Program-made: the position numbers and the translations under genes | Assembly (NCBI RefSeq): GCF_988242995.1 | Contig: NZ_OZ547043.1 | Length of the DNA: 64,000 bases | Direction: 5' to 3' (one strand) | Notes under the pieces: model-generated | Seen by the model: the letters and a program-made list of their open reading frames with translations, nothing else | Database searches by the model: none | What the model was told of the DNA's origin: nothing | In this document: positions 11,483-17,400 of the stretch, one piece after another | Layout of the letters: each line of letters starts with the position of its first letter | How positions within the stretch are numbered: position 1 is the first letter of the stretch

Positions 11483-13135
11483 TTACGCGCTCAACAGTTG
11501 CTTCATGTCTTCTTCAACAGTGGTGATAGAACGCAGGCCGAATTTCTCGTTCAGCACCGCCAGCAGGTCTGGTGTCAGGAAACCAGGTGCAGTCGGGCCG
11601 GTTACGATATTTTTCACACCCAGAGAAAGCAGTGTCAGCAGAATGACAATCGCTTTCTGTTCAAACCACGAGAGCACCAGCGACAGCGGCAGATCGTTGA
11701 CACCGCAGCCCAGTTTTTCTGCCAGCGTTACCGCCAGAATAATCGCTGAGTAAGCATCGTTACACTGACCAGCATCTACCAGACGCGGCAGACCTTCGAT
11801 ATCGCCAAACTCGAGTTTGTTAAAGCGATATTTACCACAGGCGAGAGTCAGGATCAGACAGTCATCCGGCACGCTGGTGGCGAAATCGGTGAAATAGTGA
11901 CGCTCGCCGCGTGCGCCGTCACAGCCGCCAAGCAGGAAGATATGACGCAGTTTTTCACGGCTTACCAGGTCAATCAGCGTATCCGCTGCGCCAAGCAGCG
12001 TTTGACGACCAAAGCCCACGGTGATCAGGTGCGGAATTTCGCTGTACGGGAAGCCCGCCATTTGTTGCGCCTGTGCGATGACCGCAGAGAAATCTTCGCC
12101 ATCCAGATGACGCACACCCGGCCAGCCAACGATGCTGCGGGTCCAGATACGATCGTCATAAGCGCCTACGGTTGGGTCGATGATGCAGTTCGAGGTCATC
12201 ACGATGGGGCCAGGGAAACGAGCGAACTCCACTTGCTGATTCTGCCAGCCGCTGCCGTAGTTACCGACCAGATGCTTGAATTTACGCAGCTCCGGGTAGC
12301 CATGCGCAGGCAGCATTTCGCCGTGGGTGTAGACATTAACGCCCGTGCCTTCGGTCTGTTCCAGCAGGTTGTAGAGATCTTTGAGATCGTGACCGGAAAT
12401 CAGAATGCATTTACCCGCCGTCGCTTTGACGTTGACCTGGGTTGGCGTCGGGTGACCGTATTTACCGGTTTCGCCTGCATCCAGAATGCTCATCACTTTG
12501 AAGTTCATCTGGCCGATTTCCATTGAACACTCAAGAAGCGCGTTCATATCGGCAGGCCAGGTCCCCAGCCACGCCATGATTTTATGGTACTGGGCATAAA
12601 TATCGTTGTCGTATTGACCGAGAACATGCGCGTGTTCCATATAGGCCGCCGCACCTTTCAGGCCATACAGGCACAGCAGACGCAGGCCGAGAATGTTTTC
12701 GCCAATCGCCGCTTTATCTTTGTTAGGGGTAAATTCTGCTGCCTGACGTTGCAGCTCGCCGAGATCATCGCTCACCAGTTGCAGGTCAGCCATCGGGTTA
12801 TCGACGCGCGCGTTGGCATCTACAGCCAGGCATTGTGCTTTCAGCACCTCGCGCAGGGCAATCGCTTCACGAGCGTAGCCGACTATACGCGGAGAATCGA
12901 AGTTAACGTTGGTCAGGGTTGAGAAAAATGCGCGTGGCGCAAAGCTGTCTACATCGTGGTTGATGATGCCGTATTCACGCGCTTTTACCGCCCAGGCCGA
13001 AAGCCCTTGCAGCGCCGCGATGAGTAAATCCTGAAGGTCAGAGGTTTCCGCCGTTTTACCACACATCCCCTGCGCGTATGAGCAGCCGTTTCCTGCCGGA
13101 GTACGGATAGTTTGTTCACATTGCACACAAAACAT
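11483..13135 (-). CDS. hcp: Hybrid-cluster protein Hcp (hydroxylamine/NO reductase)
   Basis: ORF 11483..13141 (-); N-terminal MFCVQCEQT with cysteine-rich cluster motif; 550 aa from the second Met. Confidence 0.9.
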
Positions 13136-13278
13136 GATCACACCTTTTAAAGTTATATTTAATATACATGTTTAAGGTTAAGACGCTTAACGCAGGGATA
13201 AAAGGGATTTTTCATGCAACTTTAAGGGAGATTGATTTAGCGCAATTTTGGCGGCAGGGATCTACCGCCAGAGAGGTA

Positions 13279-14178
13279 TTACGCAGAGAAAAAGGCGATG
13301 AGGATCGGCACTAACAGGCTAAGAATAAAACCGTGAACAATTGCCGCCGGGACCATATCCAGCCCGCCAGTACGTTGAAGAACGGGCAGGGTGAAATCCA
13401 TTGATGTGGCACCGCATAAGCCCAGTGCAGTCGAGCGGCTGCGGCGAATCAGCCCAGGGATCAACATAATAGCAATCAGCTCACGGGCCAGATCATTAAA
13501 AAACGCCGCGCTCCCGATTACCGGACCAAAAGATTCGGTCAATAAAATACCGGAAAGAGAATACCAGCCGAAACCGGAGGCCATTGCCAGCGCGGTATTG
13601 ATGGGAAGATCAAGAATAAAGGCGTTAATTAAACCACCAATTAATGAACTGGCAACCACCACCACGGCGACAATCATTCCCCGGCGATTAAGGACAATCT
13701 GCTTTAAGGTCATGCCATTATTGCGCAACTGAATACCGACGAGGAAAAGTAGCAGAATTAAGGTGTATTCACTGGCTTCGGTCGCGTGTTGTAAGAAAGC
13801 CAGTCCACTCAGACCAATGGCAAAACCAATCACTACTACGCCGCACAGTTTTAGCGACTCCAGCGCCATCGCAATACGCGACGGGAGTTTTTCTTGCTGG
13901 TGGTGGTTGCGCCACGGCAGACCGCGCTCCAGCCACAACAACGCAATAATATTGCAGAGTAAAATAATGGTAATGCTGACGGCGGAATAATGCAGAATCG
14001 CCAACAGGTTACTGGCGAGGTTATCGAGAAACGCCAGACTGATACCCATAAAAAAGAGAATGAGGTAAACCATCCAGCTTAATAGCTGATTAATAACTCT
14101 TAATGCAGCTTTTTGGCGAAGAGGAATGAGGTAACCCACAATCAGGGGAACCAGAATGATTAACAGCCCAGAAAACAT
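13279..14178 (-). CDS. lysO: Lysine exporter LysO (YbjE)
   Basis: ORF 13279..14226 (-) trimmed to MFSGLLIILVPL...; polytopic membrane protein, 299 aa. Confidence 0.85.
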   Translation of the reverse strand: MFSGLLIILVPLIVGYLIPLRQKAALRVINQLLSWMVYLILFFMGISLAFLDNLASNLLAILHYSAVSITIILLCNIIALLWLERGLPWRNHHQQEKLPSRIAMALESLKLCGVVVIGFAIGLSGLAFLQHATEASEYTLILLLFLVGIQLRNNGMTLKQIVLNRRGMIVAVVVVASSLIGGLINAFILDLPINTALAMASGFGWYSLSGILLTESFGPVIGSAAFFNDLARELIAIMLIPGLIRRSRSTALGLCGATSMDFTLPVLQRTGGLDMVPAAIVHGFILSLLVPILIAFFSA

Positions 14179-14582
14179 GAAAACCCAGTCCTTGCAAAGA
14201 TGAAGTCGAAATGCGCGATGACACACTACTGAAAGCGGAAGGACGAGTAAAGTTGCAATTAAAAGGAAATGTTATGCATAAGGATCGGTAGGGTATTCAT
14301 TTTCATTTAAAGATATTCTTGCGCTTTAATTACAAACCGCACCGGTGTTGGTGGCGTCAAAATCGCCGAGGCGTTCCCTGAAGGCCGGGGCAGCCCACAT
14401 GGATGTGGGCTGAGGGCGCGTTTTACAGGGATGTTACCTCGCGCCCGACCCGGTAGCCGCAAGGGATAAGTCGAGGGCACCGCGCAGCGGCGATTGGCCG
14501 CCCCCTGCGCGCTCCCTGCGCCAGTGACTATATGTGGCTTAACACATCAAGGAGCGCAACAGGAAGATGAATCAATATATTT

Positions 14583-14609
14583 AAAAAAGGCCTGACATTG
14601 CGCCAGGCC
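14583..14609 (-). terminator. Intrinsic terminator downstream of aqpZ
   Basis: Inverted repeat GGCCTG...CAGGCC followed on the minus strand by a U-tract (plus-strand AAAAAA at 14583-14588). Confidence 0.6.
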
Positions 14610-14620
14610 TTCTGCGTTAA

Positions 14621-15316
14621 TTAATTACGTTTTTCCAGCAGGGTCCGGTAAATCAGACCACCGATAATACCGCCGACAATTGGCACCACCCAGAAGAACC
14701 ACAGTTGTTCTAATGCCCAGCCGCCCTGGAAGATAGCAACCGCGGTGCTGCGCGCCGGGTTAACAGAAGTGTTAGTCACCGGAATACTGATTAAGTGAAT
14801 CAGGGTTAAGGCCAGACCAATAGCGATCGGCGCAAAACCAGCAGGAGCGAATTTGTCGGTTGCGCCGTGGATCACCAGCAGGAAACCTGCACTCAATACC
14901 AGTTCAACTACCAGCGCGGAAAGCATGGAATAACCGCCTGGCGAATGCTCGCCATAACCGTTAGAAGCAAAACCGCTGGCTGCCGCGTCAAAACCCGTTT
15001 TACCACTGGCAATTAAATACAGCAGCGCCGCCGCAACAATACCGCCGACAACCTGGGCAATTACGTAGCCAACGACTTCTTTTGCCGGGAAACGTCCGCC
15101 AGCCCATAAACCAATAGTGACCGCCGGGTTAAAATGACCACCAGAAATATGACCAACAGCAAAGGCCATCGTCAGAACGGTCAGACCGAATGCCAGCGCC
15201 ACGCCGGCAAAACCAATGCCTAATTCCGGGAAGCCTGCGGCCAGTACGGCACTACCACAGCCACCAAAAACAAGCCAGAAAGTACCAAAACATTCAGCTG
15301 CTAATTTTCTGAACAT
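14621..15316 (-). CDS. aqpZ: Aquaporin Z
   Basis: ORF 14621..15322 (-); [16 protein letters not shown]...; two NPA motifs ([14 protein letters not shown]). Confidence 0.9.
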
Positions 15317-15741
15317 ATCCACCTCAATTAAAAATTGACCCTGTGAAAAATATGGTCGTTTTATAGGGTCGTCGTAAAAAAGTGACGACGGAAATAATGC
15401 GCGGCTATTTTAAAAACGAAGGCAAATCATTCGCCAGATAAATAAATCCAGTAAATTTGATTTAGGGCAACAGCGGGTTGCCCCATATAGTCATTTGTCT
15501 GATTGACAGTGTAGTGCAAGCGAAAGATTTAATCCTTTAGGCGTAATAAAAAATAATTTATCATGCTAATTATTTGATTTTGTTGTTTTTGCAGGCTTAT
15601 CAGCAAGAGGGAGTATAACGCGATTATTCGCTCATTTTTCAGACATTTGCCATGCTTAAATGTGATGTCATCACGTATTAGCAAGGCCTTTCCCGTTATA
15701 CTGCCAGCGTAAAGGATAAGTCACATATTTCTGGAGGGGAT

Positions 15742-17400
15742 ATGATTCTTGAGCGCGTTGAAATTGTGGGTTTTCGCGGTATCAACCGTTTGTCGTTGAT
15801 GCTGGAACAAAACAACGTCCTGATTGGGGAGAACGCGTGGGGTAAATCCAGCTTGCTGGACGCCTTAACCTTGCTGCTATCGCCAGAATCAGATCTCTAC
15901 CATTTTGAGCGCGACGATTTCTGGTTCCCGCCGGGAGATATCAACGGTCGGGAACATCATCTGCATATTATTTTGACCTTCCGCGAATCGCTGCCAGGCC
16001 GACATCGGGTTCGCCGTTATCGGCCGTTGGAAGCGTGCTGGACGCCATGCACTGATGGCTATCACCGTATTTTTTATCGTCTGGAAGGGGAGAGTGCGGA
16101 AGACGGCAGCGTGATGACACTGCGCAGTTTTCTCGATAAAGACGGACATCCGATTGATGTTGAGGATATTAACGATCAGGCACGCCATCTGGTGCGTTTA
16201 ATGCCGGTGCTGCGCTTGCGTGATGCCCGTTTTATGCGCCGTATTCGTAACGGCACGGTGCCAAATGTCCCCAATGTGGAAGTCACCGCGCGCCAGCTCG
16301 ATTTCCTCGCCCGTGAGTTGTCCTCACATCCGCAAAATCTCTCTGATGGACAGATTCGTCAGGGACTTTCCGCAATGGTACAGCTGCTTGAGCATTATTT
16401 CTCTGAGCAGGGGGCCGGACAGGCGCGATATCGTTTAATGCGGCGGCGAGCCAGCAATGAGCAACGAAGCTGGCGCTATCTGGATATCATCAACCGGATG
16501 ATTGACCGACCAGGAGGGCGCTCGTATCGGGTTATTTTGCTCGGCCTGTTTGCTACTTTGTTGCAGGCAAAAGGCACATTGCGACTGGATAAAGACGCCC
16601 GTCCATTGTTGCTGATCGAAGATCCAGAAACCCGTTTACACCCCATTATGCTTTCAGTTGCCTGGCATCTGTTGAATCTTCTGCCATTGCAGCGCATTGC
16701 CACCACCAACTCTGGCGAGCTGCTTTCGTTAACGCCGGTAGAACATGTTTGCCGACTGGTACGTGAGTCCTCGCGCGTTGCCGCCTGGCGTCTGGGGCCG
16801 AGTGGTTTGAGTACCGAAGACAGCCGACGCATCTCTTTCCACATTCGTTTTAATCGTCCGTCATCGCTGTTTGCACGCTGCTGGCTGCTGGTGGAAGGCG
16901 AAACGGAAACCTGGGTTATCAATGAACTGGCGCGTCAGTGCGGACATCATTTTGATGCCGAAGGGATCAAGGTCATTGAGTTTGCCCAGTCCGGGCTAAA
17001 GCCACTGGTTAAATTTGCCCGGCGAATGGGGATTGAATGGCATGTACTGGTCGATGGCGATGAGGCAGGGAAGAAATATGCCGCTACGGTACGCAGCCTG
17101 TTGAATAACGATCGGGAAGCCGAACGAGAACATTTAACGGCGTTACCGGCGCTGGATATGGAACATTTTATGTATCGCCAGGGATTTTCCGATGTGTTCC
17201 ACCGCGTGGCGCAAATCCCGGAAAATGTACCGATGAATCTGCGCAAAATTATCTCGAAAGCGATCCATCGCTCTTCCAAACCCGATCTTGCCATTGAAGT
17301 GGCAATGGAGGCAGGACGTCGTGGTGTGGATTCCGTACCGACGCTGCTGAAAAAAATGTTCTCACGCGTGCTGTGGCTGGCGCGCGGTCGCGCGGATTAA
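15742..17400 (+). CDS. ybjD: OLD-family ATP-dependent endonuclease-like protein YbjD (AAA ATPase + Toprim)
   Basis: 552-aa ORF MILERVEIVGFRGINRL...; Walker A GENAWGKSSLLDAL; stop overlaps convergent ybjX stop by 4 nt. Confidence 0.9.
   Translation: MILERVEIVGFRGINRLSLMLEQNNVLIGENAWGKSSLLDALTLLLSPESDLYHFERDDFWFPPGDINGREHHLHIILTFRESLPGRHRVRRYRPLEACWTPCTDGYHRIFYRLEGESAEDGSVMTLRSFLDKDGHPIDVEDINDQARHLVRLMPVLRLRDARFMRRIRNGTVPNVPNVEVTARQLDFLARELSSHPQNLSDGQIRQGLSAMVQLLEHYFSEQGAGQARYRLMRRRASNEQRSWRYLDIINRMIDRPGGRSYRVILLGLFATLLQAKGTLRLDKDARPLLLIEDPETRLHPIMLSVAWHLLNLLPLQRIATTNSGELLSLTPVEHVCRLVRESSRVAAWRLGPSGLSTEDSRRISFHIRFNRPSSLFARCWLLVEGETETWVINELARQCGHHFDAEGIKVIEFAQSGLKPLVKFARRMGIEWHVLVDGDEAGKKYAATVRSLLNNDREAEREHLTALPALDMEHFMYRQGFSDVFHRVAQIPENVPMNLRKIISKAIHRSSKPDLAIEVAMEAGRRGVDSVPTLLKKMFSRVLWLARGRAD

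What the first reader, a model, noticed from the sequence alone, without database searches (positions are those of the whole stretch)
14340..14560. G+C-rich, highly structured segment in the lysO-aqpZ intergenic region
Within the ~440-bp intergenic region a ~200-bp stretch is conspicuously G+C-rich and packed with inverted repeats. These include a perfect 10-bp stem CAGCCCACAT-GG-ATGTGGGCTG (14390-14411), GGGCGCG...CGCGCCC (14414-14446) and GCGCAG...CTGCGC further on. It has no ORF of 60 aa or more and does not match REP or the I-F repeat. It could be a structured non-coding RNA, a cis-regulatory leader, or a degenerate repeat element; I cannot tell which.
Basis: seen in the sequence. Interest (0 to 1): 0.3.

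Follow-up and report, generated by a model that had tools for sequence, protein, structure and literature searches.

The report
RRS-lysO replication-gap element, G4 deleted
The G+C-rich structured stretch between lysO and aqpZ is the already described E. coli "replication risk sequence" RRS-lysO (also called the TRIP1a repeat), a DNA element that makes the replication fork leave a single-stranded gap, and this copy has lost the 41 bases that hold its G-quadruplex.

Summary
About 225 bp (14337-14561) are 65% G+C and full of stems. The stretch folds better than shuffles (z -3.0 to -4.0 as DNA).

It is a known element, TRIP1a (Rudd 1999; Li 2024), also named RRS-lysO (Pham et al. NAR 2023 and 2024). 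In K-12 it is one of two GC-rich repeats 650 kb either side of dif. Its G-quadruplex strand, on the lagging-strand template, stalls polymerases and leaves a post-replication gap of up to 2 kb.

What I add:
- The window copy has a precise 41-bp deletion between GCGGCGATT direct repeats. It removes the published G4 (GGGGGTGCAGGGGGCGGCGG).
- The same junction occurs in 105 of 5426 complete E. coli genomes, at lysO or dusC, and never twice in one genome.
- Across 43 copies from Escherichia, Klebsiella, Citrobacter and Pseudocitrobacter, the hairpins are kept by compensatory changes (25 of 65 pairs).
- The G4 signal itself is weak in every Citrobacter copy.
- The 5' Y-shaped domain resembles the orphan Rfam family TwoAYGGAY. 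The matches run both ways but stay below threshold.

Verdict: already known element and a DNA-level function. An RNA role is not excluded.

The parts
14337..14561 (+). Whole RRS-lysO / TRIP1a element, deletion allele (about 225 bp; 266 bp in K-12)
   Evidence: It is homologous to K-12 lysO-aqpZ (93% identity) and aligns with it in A1, A2 and A3. The limits are inferred from Li et al. 2024, who place TRIP1a 158 bp upstream of lysO and 70 bp downstream of aqpZ, and from where the copies stop aligning.
14374..14469 (+). Y-shaped 5' domain: a three-way junction carrying two hairpins, resembling the TwoAYGGAY core
   Evidence: The covariance model R1, built from 34 enterobacterial copies, scores 113.9 bits here, and this is the only hit in the window. 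The wider Rfam TwoAYGGAY match (14357-14496, +) scores 28.8 bits against a gathering score of 43.
14391..14412 (+). Hairpin 1: CAGCCCACA-TGGA-TGTGGGCTG. The CATGGATG apex is invariant in all 43 copies.
   Evidence: See (I9). In one search, helix 6 has 9 pairs, 3 of them with compensatory changes (CG/GC, CG/AU, GC/AU).
14414..14446 (+). Hairpin 2: lower stem GGGCGCG/CGCGCCC, an internal loop, and the apex ACAGGGATGT
   Evidence: See (helices 7 and 8; the apex stem pair switches GC to AU in 13 copies).
14358..14373 (+). 5' strand of the closing stem (P1). It pairs with 14483-14495.
   Evidence: See (I5, 13 nt, 85% complementary). In one search, helices 1 and 2 have 6 of 13 pairs with compensatory changes. 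In the window the 3' strand is shortened by the deletion.
14487..14495 (+). Deletion junction: the single remaining copy of the direct repeat GCGGCGATT. The 41 bp lost (TTGTTCGCCAGAGCCCGGGGGTGCAGGGGGCGGCGGCGATT in K-12) would follow it.
   Evidence: Alignment A3 compares the window with AR_0067 (identical flanks, full length), K-12, S21 and SCEC020023. The lost segment contains the published G4, GGGGGTGCAGGGGGCGGCGG.
14482..14510 (+). Residual hairpin GCGCAG-CGGC-GATTG-GCCG-CCCC-CTGCGC. It was created by the deletion and replaces the 11-bp CAGGGGGCGGC/GCCGCCCCCTG hairpin of full-length copies.
   Evidence: See (I2). helix 11, describes the ancestral hairpin.
14509..14557 (+). 3' hairpin GCGCTCCCTG ... 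CAAGGAGCGC with a variable loop
   Evidence: See (I12). In one search, helix 12 has 3 of 7 pairs with compensatory changes.
14587..14611 (-). Context, not part of the repeat: the aqpZ terminator hairpin AAGGCCTG/CAGGCCTT, followed by a T run on the - strand
   Evidence: See (I14) and the sequence. [quoted passage not shown] The scan tool missed it because its loop is 9 nt.
13279..14226 (-). Context: lysO (ybjE). RefSeq annotates the 900-nt version.
14621..15322 (-). Context: aqpZ

Best explanation
The segment is the RRS-lysO element, also called the TRIP1a repeat. It is a conserved, dispersed, GC-rich DNA element of Enterobacteriaceae that acts at the DNA level.

Shown by others in K-12: when the replication fork unwinds it, the sense strand (the lagging-strand template) folds into very stable secondary structure, including a G-quadruplex. 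Polymerases stop there, and lagging-strand synthesis restarts downstream. A transient gap of up to 2 kb is left, which loads SSB and RecA. With its twin at dusC on the other side of dif, the element is proposed to relieve topological stress at the edges of the Ter macrodomain. At least one copy is conditionally essential.

Shown here: the window copy is a deletion allele. A 41-bp deletion between 9-bp direct repeats removed the G4 and one arm of the strongest 3' hairpin. The Y-shaped 5' domain and the terminal hairpin are intact.

Inferred: this copy is a weakened gap trigger. Its predicted ssDNA stability is -55 kcal/mol against -82 for K-12. I infer that the strain relies on another, intact copy.
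For: Identity:
- 93% identity to K-12 lysO-aqpZ at the syntenic site hcp-lysO-[element]-aqpZ-ybjD.
- 5425 of 5426 E. coli genomes hold a match, with a median of 3 places each.
- A second copy lies at dusC-yohP.
- The literature names these loci TRIP1a/c and RRS-lysO/RRS-dusC and gives the mechanism.

Orientation:
- The published G4 strand equals the window + strand (one search compared).
- The window + strand has a GC skew of +0.041, so it has leading-strand composition and is the lagging-strand template.
- The window + strand matches the + strand of a K-12-like record at 914130-914575 (H17).

Deletion:
- See alignment A3.
- The highest G4Hunter score falls from 1.84 in K-12 to 1.04 in the window.
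- The ssDNA fold is -82.1 kcal/mol (z -7.3) for K-12 and -55.2 kcal/mol (z -3.0) for the window.
- The same junction is in 105 of 5426 genomes, one per genome. It occurs at lysO (S21) and at dusC (SCEC020023), on different allelic backgrounds.
- 5418 of 5426 genomes keep at least one copy with the G4 segment.

Selection on structure: 65 pairs are 99.3% paired, and 25 show compensatory changes, against 3-5 in slid controls.
Against: - No experiment has been done on this allele. If the hairpins rather than the G4 are the functional core, it may work normally.
- The G4 signal is weak in every Citrobacter copy (G4Hunter 0.88-1.20) and in two of the Klebsiella copies (0.96-1.00), while their hairpins covary. 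The 2026 preprint reports that the complementary strand also triggers gaps at lower frequency.
- The deletion could be a recurrent sequencing or assembly artefact. The authors report that RRS resist standard Sanger sequencing.
- Orientation relative to local GC skew is mixed among copies in other genera. The O157:H7 lysO copy and the A32 dusC copy are inverted relative to their flanking genes. A strict lagging-template rule is therefore not universal.
- The proposed 'topological relief valve' role is still a hypothesis of the original authors.
Confidence: 0.85

Rival explanations
1. The element, or its 5' Y domain, works as a structured non-coding RNA of the TwoAYGGAY type. It would be transcribed from the + strand and present two GGA-containing hairpin apexes to a dimeric RNA-binding protein such as CsrA. 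This could hold alongside the DNA role.
For: - TwoAYGGAY (RF01731, + strand) is the best Rfam match for the window (28.8 bits), other E. coli copies (30.6-30.9), Citrobacter (35.4 bits, E 4.7e-4) and a GC-rich metagenomic relative (33.4 bits).
- The reciprocal search works. A model of the enterobacterial Y domain finds five bona fide TwoAYGGAY loci (74-127 bits in Rfam) among its six best hits, at E 0.011-0.066 in 643 kb.
- The architecture is the same: a closing stem, hairpin 1 with a CAUGGAUG apex, a 1-2 nt linker, and hairpin 2 with an internal loop and an AYGGAY-like apex.
- The apex sequences are invariant while the stems covary.
- Gardner's group proposed that TwoAYGGAY binds CsrA.
- From my own knowledge, UUACAGGGAUGU matches 11 of 12 positions of the SELEX CsrA consensus RUACARGGAUGU.
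Against: - All RRS scores are below Rfam's gathering score (43), and Klebsiella copies are not detected at all.
- No promoter-like or terminator-like site lies in or beside the element.
- The + strand is antisense to both neighbours at lysO.
- Copies occur in either orientation relative to their neighbours.
- The strand test is inconclusive: on pairs common to both strands, G-U 16 against A-C 9.
- Hairpins conserved by covariation are equally expected for an ssDNA structure.
- No paper I found links RRS, lysO or dusC to CsrA.
- TwoAYGGAY itself has never been shown to be an RNA.
Confidence: 0.15
2. It is a selfish or neutral miniature mobile repeat, similar to REP or MITE elements, that spreads in intergenic DNA. 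Its hairpins would be recognition sites for a transposase or recombinase, with no service to the host.
For: - Copy number varies: 1-8 places in E. coli, 13 in one K. pneumoniae chromosome, and four copies in each of two Citrobacter genomes.
- Tandem duplicates occur in Klebsiella (L005).
- Copies are present or absent, and inverted or not, at the same intergenic site.
- All copies are intergenic.
Against: - There are no terminal inverted repeats or target duplications at the ends of the aligned copies.
- No associated transposase was seen next to the copies inspected.
- There is no match in phages, and the 'plasmid' hits I inspected carry chromosomal housekeeping genes.
- K-12 experiments show a phenotype: the double deletion is viable only with a compensating amplification.
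Confidence: 0.07
3. It is a cis-regulatory leader or riboswitch of lysO, or a 3' UTR element of aqpZ, acting on the - strand transcript.
For: It lies upstream of lysO and downstream of aqpZ. It is highly structured on the - strand as well.
Against: - The same element sits next to unrelated genes: dusC/yohP, pcaC, sitD, rimO, torD.
- It is inverted relative to lysO in O157:H7.
- The aqpZ terminator precedes it, and roughly 158 bp of promoter region separates it from lysO.
- There is no Rfam riboswitch or leader hit.
Confidence: 0.02
4. The 41-bp deletion is not biological. It would be a recurrent sequencing or assembly artefact at a hard-to-read G4 and hairpin. This concerns the allele only, not the identity of the element.
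For: - RRS cannot be read by standard Sanger protocols.
- The nearest genome, AR_0067, is identical in the flanks but full length.
- The junction appears sporadically in unrelated assemblies and at both loci.
Against: - Slippage between 9-bp direct repeats that bracket a stable hairpin or G4 is a classic in vivo deletion route.
- The junction is exact and identical in 105 complete genomes from many projects.
Confidence: 0.3

Closest known systems
RRS-lysO (Replication Risk Sequence; Pham et al. NAR 2023 and 2024; Kusi-Appauh et al. bioRxiv 2026), also TRIP1a (Rudd 1999; Li et al. Genes 2024)
   Same: It has the same locus (lysO-aqpZ), the same orientation and 93% identity. It has the same Y-domain, closing stem and terminal hairpin, and it is GC-rich and intergenic.
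   Different: It lacks 41 bp, including the whole published G4 (GGGGGTGCAGGGGGCGGCGG) and the 5' arm of the 11-bp GC hairpin. The predicted ssDNA stability is about 27 kcal/mol lower. I did not find this allele described in the papers I read.
TRIP1b (putP-efeU copy in K-12; a partial form with a 125-bp internal deletion)
   Same: It is another natural internal-deletion derivative of the same repeat.
   Different: TRIP1b lies at a different locus and has a larger deletion. I did not examine which part it lacks.
TwoAYGGAY RNA motif (Rfam RF01731; Weinberg et al. 2010), an orphan family from the human gut, Clostridiales and Psychromonas
   Same: The architecture is the same: a closing stem, then two adjacent hairpins with CAUGGAUG-type apexes around a junction. 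It is multi-copy per genome (Psychromonas; two copies in L087). Covariance-model matches run both ways.
   Different: RRS scores 28.8-35.4 bits against a gathering score of 43. The second apex in E. coli is AGGGAU, not AYGGAY. RRS carries an extra 3' GC-hairpin/G4 domain that the gut TwoAYGGAY examples I looked at lack. TwoAYGGAY is filed as an RNA, whereas RRS is shown to act as DNA.
Neisseria gonorrhoeae pilE G4 (a G-quadruplex that triggers a gap or nick for pilin antigenic variation)
   Same: It is a programmed structure-forming sequence that perturbs replication. The RRS authors cite it as the only other bacterial example.
   Different: It has a different sequence, a different biological outcome (recombination) and no multi-hairpin domain.
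REP/BIME elements (naRNA4 model in Rfam)
   Same: They are GC-rich, palindromic, dispersed intergenic repeats of E. coli, some with roles in topology (gyrase sites).
   Different: There is no sequence or model match here. RRS is about 6 times longer, has far fewer copies and has a different fold.

Membership tests
RRS / TRIP1 repeat family | Sequence homology over the whole element to K-12 RRS-lysO / TRIP1a | tested here: met
   Identity is 93% over the intergenic region in two pieces. See also alignments A1, A2 and A3.
RRS / TRIP1 repeat family | Position between lysO (ybjE) and aqpZ for the 'a' copy | tested here: met
   ORFs and synteny run hcp-lysO-element-aqpZ-ybjD.
RRS / TRIP1 repeat family | G-quadruplex-forming sequence 5'-GGGGGTGCAGGGGGCGGCGG-3' on the sense strand | tested here: not met
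   It is deleted. The highest G4Hunter score is 1.04, against 1.76-2.12 in nearly all other E. coli and Klebsiella copies.
RRS / TRIP1 repeat family | Sense strand is the lagging-strand template | tested here: met
   The + strand GC skew is +0.041 over 64 kb. The strand is the same as in the K-12-like record at 914130-914575. This is inferred from composition and synteny, not from replication data.
RRS / TRIP1 repeat family | Triggers lagging-strand ssDNA gaps and RecA/SSB loading | not testable with these tools
   This needs ssGap-seq or polymerase extension assays.
RRS / TRIP1 repeat family | Extensive, conserved secondary structure ('double-Y' fold) | tested here: met
   The 5' Y is intact in the window, and the 3' part is remodelled by the deletion.
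TwoAYGGAY RNA (RF01731) | Score at or above Rfam's gathering threshold (43 bits) | tested here: not met
   The window scores 28.8 bits. Relatives score 30.6-35.4. Klebsiella copies are not detected.
TwoAYGGAY RNA (RF01731) | Two terminal loops each carrying AYGGAY | tested here: inconclusive
   Hairpin 1 has AUGGAU, which fits. Hairpin 2 has AGGGAU in the window (R instead of Y), and AUGGAU or AUGGAC in a few Citrobacter and Klebsiella copies.
TwoAYGGAY RNA (RF01731) | Closing P1 stem around the two hairpins | tested here: met
   See helices 1-5, with compensatory changes.
TwoAYGGAY RNA (RF01731) | Exists as a transcript | not testable with these tools
   No expression data were available. There were no promoter or terminator matches.
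Csr/Rsm-type CsrA-sequestering sRNA | Many GGA motifs in hairpin loops, its own promoter and terminator, and binding of CsrA | tested here: not met
   Only the two hairpin apexes resemble the CsrA site. There is no promoter or terminator match. There is no CsrB, CsrC or Rsm model hit. Binding itself is not testable here.
REP/BIME | Match to the REP consensus or the naRNA4 model | tested here: not met
   There is no naRNA4 hit in 13000-16000, although the model does find REPs in other loci.
Lysine riboswitch or another lysO leader | Rfam cis-regulatory model on the lysO (-) strand | tested here: not met
   No such hit appears at E up to 10.

The most novel reading that the evidence does not exclude
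RRS/TRIP1 and the orphan Rfam family TwoAYGGAY may be one superfamily of dispersed, structure-forming elements. If so, one of two things follows. The 200-odd 'TwoAYGGAY RNAs' of gut Clostridia and Psychromonas may really be DNA-level replication-gap or topology elements like RRS. Or RRS elements may also be expressed as protein-binding (CsrA-like) RNAs.

A corollary concerns what selection preserves. It appears to be the hairpin fold with its invariant CATGGATG apexes, not the G-quadruplex. The G4 signal is weak in all Citrobacter copies, and the G4 has been deleted repeatedly in E. coli, as in this window.
Probability: 0.3. Interest if true: 0.7.

Novelty: already known. Interest (0 to 1): 0.4.

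Why it matters
RRS elements are the first bacterial sequences shown to programme post-replication gaps, and one copy is conditionally essential in K-12. Knowing that this 'odd GC-rich stretch' is RRS-lysO explains it completely at the level of identity.

The extra observations bear on how RRS works:
- A natural allele without the G4 exists in about 2% of complete E. coli genomes.
- Homologues in Citrobacter keep the hairpins by compensatory substitution but have only a weak G4 signal.

Both points argue that the multi-hairpin fold, not the G4 alone, is what evolution conserves. These alleles are also ready-made test material. The resemblance to TwoAYGGAY, if it holds, would give a first functional lead for an orphan family that is common in the human gut microbiome.

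Tried and rejected
- Rfam at a permissive threshold over 13000-16000 gave nothing at gathering score. The snoRNA, lncRNA and PhrS hits are chance (E 3-9).
- The promoter and terminator scans on the window and on K-12 found nothing. The aqpZ terminator was missed because of its 9-nt loop.
- The phage collection gave no match.
- The plasmid collection gave 34 records, but those I inspected carry chromosomal housekeeping genes, and two of the listed records are chromosome-sized (4.9 and 5.4 Mb). There is no evidence of plasmid carriage.
- I first read many G-U pairs as favouring the + strand. A fair comparison was inconclusive: each strand folded on its own, then only the shared pairs counted, gave G-U 16 against A-C 9, and alifold gave -91.9 against -82.1 kcal/mol.
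- I used the GC skew of flanks to test whether all copies put the sense strand on the lagging template. The signs were mixed (8 of 33 positive) and noisy at 4-14 kb, so no conclusion follows.
- Genome-collection hits labelled Desulfacinum, Sporobacter and 'Proteobacteria' MAGs looked like distant relatives. Their sequence is that of the Klebsiella and E. coli copies, so they are most likely misbinned contigs.
- The SD-like AGGAG plus ATG at the 3' end is part of the terminal hairpin. The downstream 'ORFs' are 3-9 codons in three of the four E. coli copies and not conserved in any, and the ATG is absent in Klebsiella.
- A search for papers linking CsrA to lysO, dusC or yohP found nothing relevant.

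Full report
**Observation.** The window is E. coli. lysO lies at 13279-14226 (-) and aqpZ at 14621-15322 (-), flanked by hcp and ybjD. Between them, 100-nt windows reach 65-66% G+C over 14350-14549, against 34-45% on either side. The perfect 10-bp stem is at 14391-14400 / 14403-14412, one base off what was written. There is no ORF of 60 aa or more. The stretch folds better than dinucleotide shuffles. As RNA, z is -2.5 for the + strand and -2.1 for the - strand. As DNA, z is -3.0 and -4.0, with 0 of 200 shuffles as good.

**Identity.** Megablast of the intergenic region against 5426 complete E. coli genomes found a match in 5425. The median is 3 places per genome and the maximum 8, so this is a dispersed repeat. 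A second copy lies between dusC and yohP. A literature search on aqpZ/ybjE led to Li et al. 2024 (PMC10888264). They describe TRIP1a (158 bp upstream of ybjE/lysO and 70 bp downstream of aqpZ), TRIP1b (putP), TRIP1c (yohI/dusC), TRIP1d and TRIP1e. These are 146-273 bp long, 62-65% G+C, and fold as a 'double-Y'. They were first listed by Rudd in 1999.

A second search led to Pham et al. (NAR 2023, PMC10287960; NAR 2024, PMC11194060) and a 2026 preprint. These papers call the lysO and dusC copies Replication Risk Sequences, RRS. Their findings in K-12 are:
- The two 222-bp repeats lie 650 kb either side of dif, near the Ter macrodomain borders.
- The sense strand carries a G4, 5'-GGGGGTGCAGGGGGCGGCGG-3', and is the lagging-strand template at both loci.
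- Pol I, II and IV stop at the G4 in vitro.
- In vivo, a lagging-strand gap of about 2 kb forms and loads RecA and SSB wherever an RRS is placed in that orientation.
- Both copies can be deleted only together with a 200-kb amplification or with ectopic or inverted RRS.
- Loss or inversion of both copies changes genome-wide supercoiling.

The finding is therefore a known element with a known, DNA-level mechanism.

**Orientation in the window.** The G4 strand of K-12 corresponds to the window + strand (one search compared). The + strand has a GC skew of +0.041 over 64 kb. That is leading-strand composition, so it is the lagging-strand template. The window + strand aligns to the + strand of a K-12-like record at 914130-914575 (H17). 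This agrees with the published orientation.

**What is different in this copy.** Compared with K-12, the window lacks 41 bp, TTGTTCGCCAGAGCCCGGGGGTGCAGGGGGCGGCGGCGATT. In full-length copies this lies between two copies of GCGGCGATT; one copy remains at 14487-14495. The lost segment holds the entire published G4 and the 5' arm of the 11-bp hairpin CAGGGGGCGGC/GCCGCCCCCTG.
- The highest G4Hunter score drops from 1.84 (K-12) to 1.04.
- The predicted ssDNA stability drops from -82.1 kcal/mol (z -7.3) to -55.2 kcal/mol (z -3.0).
- The closest genome, AR_0067, has identical flanks but is full length.
- A 39-nt probe that can seed only on the junction finds it in 105 of 5426 genomes, always once per genome.
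- The junction occurs at lysO in strain S21, on a K-12-like allele, and at dusC in strain SCEC020023. Counting the window, the deletion has arisen at least three times.
- A probe for the deleted segment finds at least one copy in 5418 of 5426 genomes. Nearly all deletion carriers therefore keep an intact copy, which fits the reported need for at least one RRS.
- With these frequencies, only about 0.5 double carriers are expected by chance, so their absence proves nothing.
- The deletion may be real slippage across a stable structure, or a recurrent sequencing artefact at a sequence known to resist sequencing. I cannot tell which.

**Family and structure.** Blastn and a pattern scan of 100,044 species representatives found copies in Escherichia, Klebsiella (13 places in one chromosome, and a tandem pair in L005), Citrobacter (four copies in each of two genomes) and Pseudocitrobacter. 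Hits in three MAGs with unrelated taxonomic labels have the sequence of the Klebsiella or E. coli copies.

An alignment of 43 distinct copies (A2) gives a consensus fold of 65 pairs in 12 helices:
- 99.3% of cells are paired.
- 25 pairs carry compensatory double changes, against 3-5 when partners are slid by 1-3 columns.
- The covariation score is 0.338, against 0.048-0.078 in the slid controls.
- The apex CATGGATG of hairpin 1 never varies, while its stem switches between CCCACA/TGTGGG, CCCGCA/TGCGGG and CCAGCA/TGCTGG.
- The 3' GC hairpin has 8 of 11 pairs with compensatory changes.

By contrast, the G4 signal is not conserved. Every Citrobacter copy scores 0.88-1.20 on G4Hunter, and two of the Klebsiella copies (the K. 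aerogenes copy L007, and L024) score 0.96-1.00. The remaining full-length E. coli and Klebsiella copies score 1.76-2.12. In E. coli, the second G-run of the G4 is also the 5' arm of that hairpin, so the two structures compete. My reading is that selection maintains the hairpin fold. This fold could be what blocks lagging-strand synthesis in genera where the G4 signal is weak. This is an inference.

**Which strand, and DNA or RNA?** Folding each strand separately and counting only shared pairs gives G-U 16 against A-C 9. The alifold energies are -91.9 kcal/mol (+) and -82.1 kcal/mol (-). That is a slight lean to the + strand and is not decisive. No sigma-70-like promoter or intrinsic terminator was found in or beside the element. 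At lysO the + strand is antisense to both neighbours. At dusC in K-12-type strains the sense strand lies 43 bp downstream of the dusC stop, so it could be read through there. This was not tested.

**Resemblance to TwoAYGGAY.** The only notable Rfam match is TwoAYGGAY (RF01731), on the + strand at 14357-14496.
- It scores 28.8 bits (E 0.11 over all families), against a gathering score of 43.
- Other E. coli copies score 30.6-30.9 bits.
- A Citrobacter copy with two CAUGGAUG apexes scores 35.4 bits (E 4.7e-4).
- Klebsiella copies are not detected.

TwoAYGGAY is an orphan motif from gut metagenomes, Clostridiales and Psychromonas, where it is multi-copy. It has been proposed to bind CsrA.

To test the reverse direction, I fetched loci from metagenomes with the pattern ACATGGATGT-N18-40-ACATGGATGT. 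Eighteen matches in these loci are bona fide TwoAYGGAY at 74-127 bits. A covariance model of the enterobacterial Y domain (R1, 96 positions, 28 pairs) finds five of these loci among its six best hits, at E 0.011-0.066 in 643 kb. Its best hit (35.2 bits, E 1.4e-7) is a GC-rich element downstream of a transaldolase gene (L099), which Rfam's model scores at 33.4 bits. L099 also has a G-rich hairpin domain like that of RRS. It looks like a link between the two sets.

The shared architecture is a closing stem, hairpin 1 with a CAUGGAUG apex, a 1-2 nt linker, hairpin 2 with an internal loop and a GGA apex, and a return strand. Membership of RF01731 by Rfam's own criterion is not met. I report a resemblance with reciprocal sub-threshold support, not membership.

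**Rivals.**
- A lysO leader or aqpZ 3' element is very unlikely. The element has unrelated neighbours elsewhere, it is inverted relative to lysO in O157:H7, and there is no Rfam cis-regulatory hit.
- A purely selfish repeat is made unlikely by the K-12 phenotypes. However, the variable copy number, tandem copies and inversions show that the family is dynamic.
- An RNA role (TwoAYGGAY or CsrA type) remains possible alongside the DNA role. I give it about 0.15.

**Verdict.** The element itself is already known as RRS-lysO / TRIP1a. The window holds a G4-less deletion allele. I did not find this allele described in the papers I read.

Noticed in passing
L001 3001-3274 (E. coli O157:H7 F8092B, lysO-aqpZ); L002 3001-3186 (strain A32, yohP-dusC); L033: In these strains the RRS/TRIP1 copy is inverted relative to its flanking genes compared with K-12 and the window. 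It also belongs to a distinct sequence subtype (for example GTCTTACA.GGACGTTA and GCCGAAGGGG). In the O157:H7 lysO copy, the sense (G4) strand is then on the same strand as aqpZ and lysO. If the region is collinear with K-12, that is the leading-strand template.
   Followed up: partly
L005 2059-2343 and 2496-2780 (K. pneumoniae strain 176): Two near-identical RRS copies lie in tandem, 437 bp apart, in one intergenic region. The same record has 13 places in all, so 'two RRS flanking Ter' does not describe Klebsiella.
   Followed up: no
L099 10380-10540, - strand (metagenome contig Ga0207878_100048): This is an RRS-like element outside the sampled enterobacteria, just downstream of a transaldolase gene and its terminator. 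It has a Y domain with two ACATGGATGT apexes, followed by a G-rich hairpin (GGGGGAGCGGCGAGGGGGCGAGCGTTAAGCCCCCTCG). It scores 35.2 bits with the RRS model and 33.4 bits with Rfam TwoAYGGAY.
   Followed up: partly
L050, L058, L085, L098, L112, L136 and others (metagenome contigs): Many hits to the double ACATGGATGT pattern are tandem arrays with units of about 50-60 nt. Each unit has an ACATGGATGT hairpin plus a GCAGGAGCA-like motif. They look like Csr/Rsm-type sponge RNAs. They were not examined further.
   Followed up: no
L087 262-425 and 2959-3124: Two bona fide TwoAYGGAY copies (96 and 88 bits) lie 2.7 kb apart on one 5-kb gut contig. Together with the multi-copy Psychromonas examples, this suggests that TwoAYGGAY behaves as a dispersed repeat.
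   Followed up: no
L014, L017, L027 (MAGs labelled Desulfacinum, 'Proteobacteria bacterium', Sporobacter termitidis): In the stretches I read around the element, these contigs match the Klebsiella or E. coli copies, including the end of dusC in L017. They are probably binning contamination in public MAGs.
   Followed up: yes
L001 2262-2957: In O157:H7 strain F8092B, aqpZ is annotated as a pseudogene with an internal stop.
   Followed up: no
window 14548-14590: An SD-like AGGAG followed by ATG at the 3' edge of the element opens only a 5-codon ORF (MNQYI*). The AGGAGCGC is the 3' arm of the terminal hairpin. The mini-ORFs differ in each copy, and the ATG is missing in Klebsiella.
   Followed up: yes
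L002 294-371, L003 5925-6002, L009 460-499: REP/BIME units (Rfam naRNA4, 30-56 bits, below the gathering score) lie near some RRS copies in other genomes. None lies next to the window copy.
   Followed up: no
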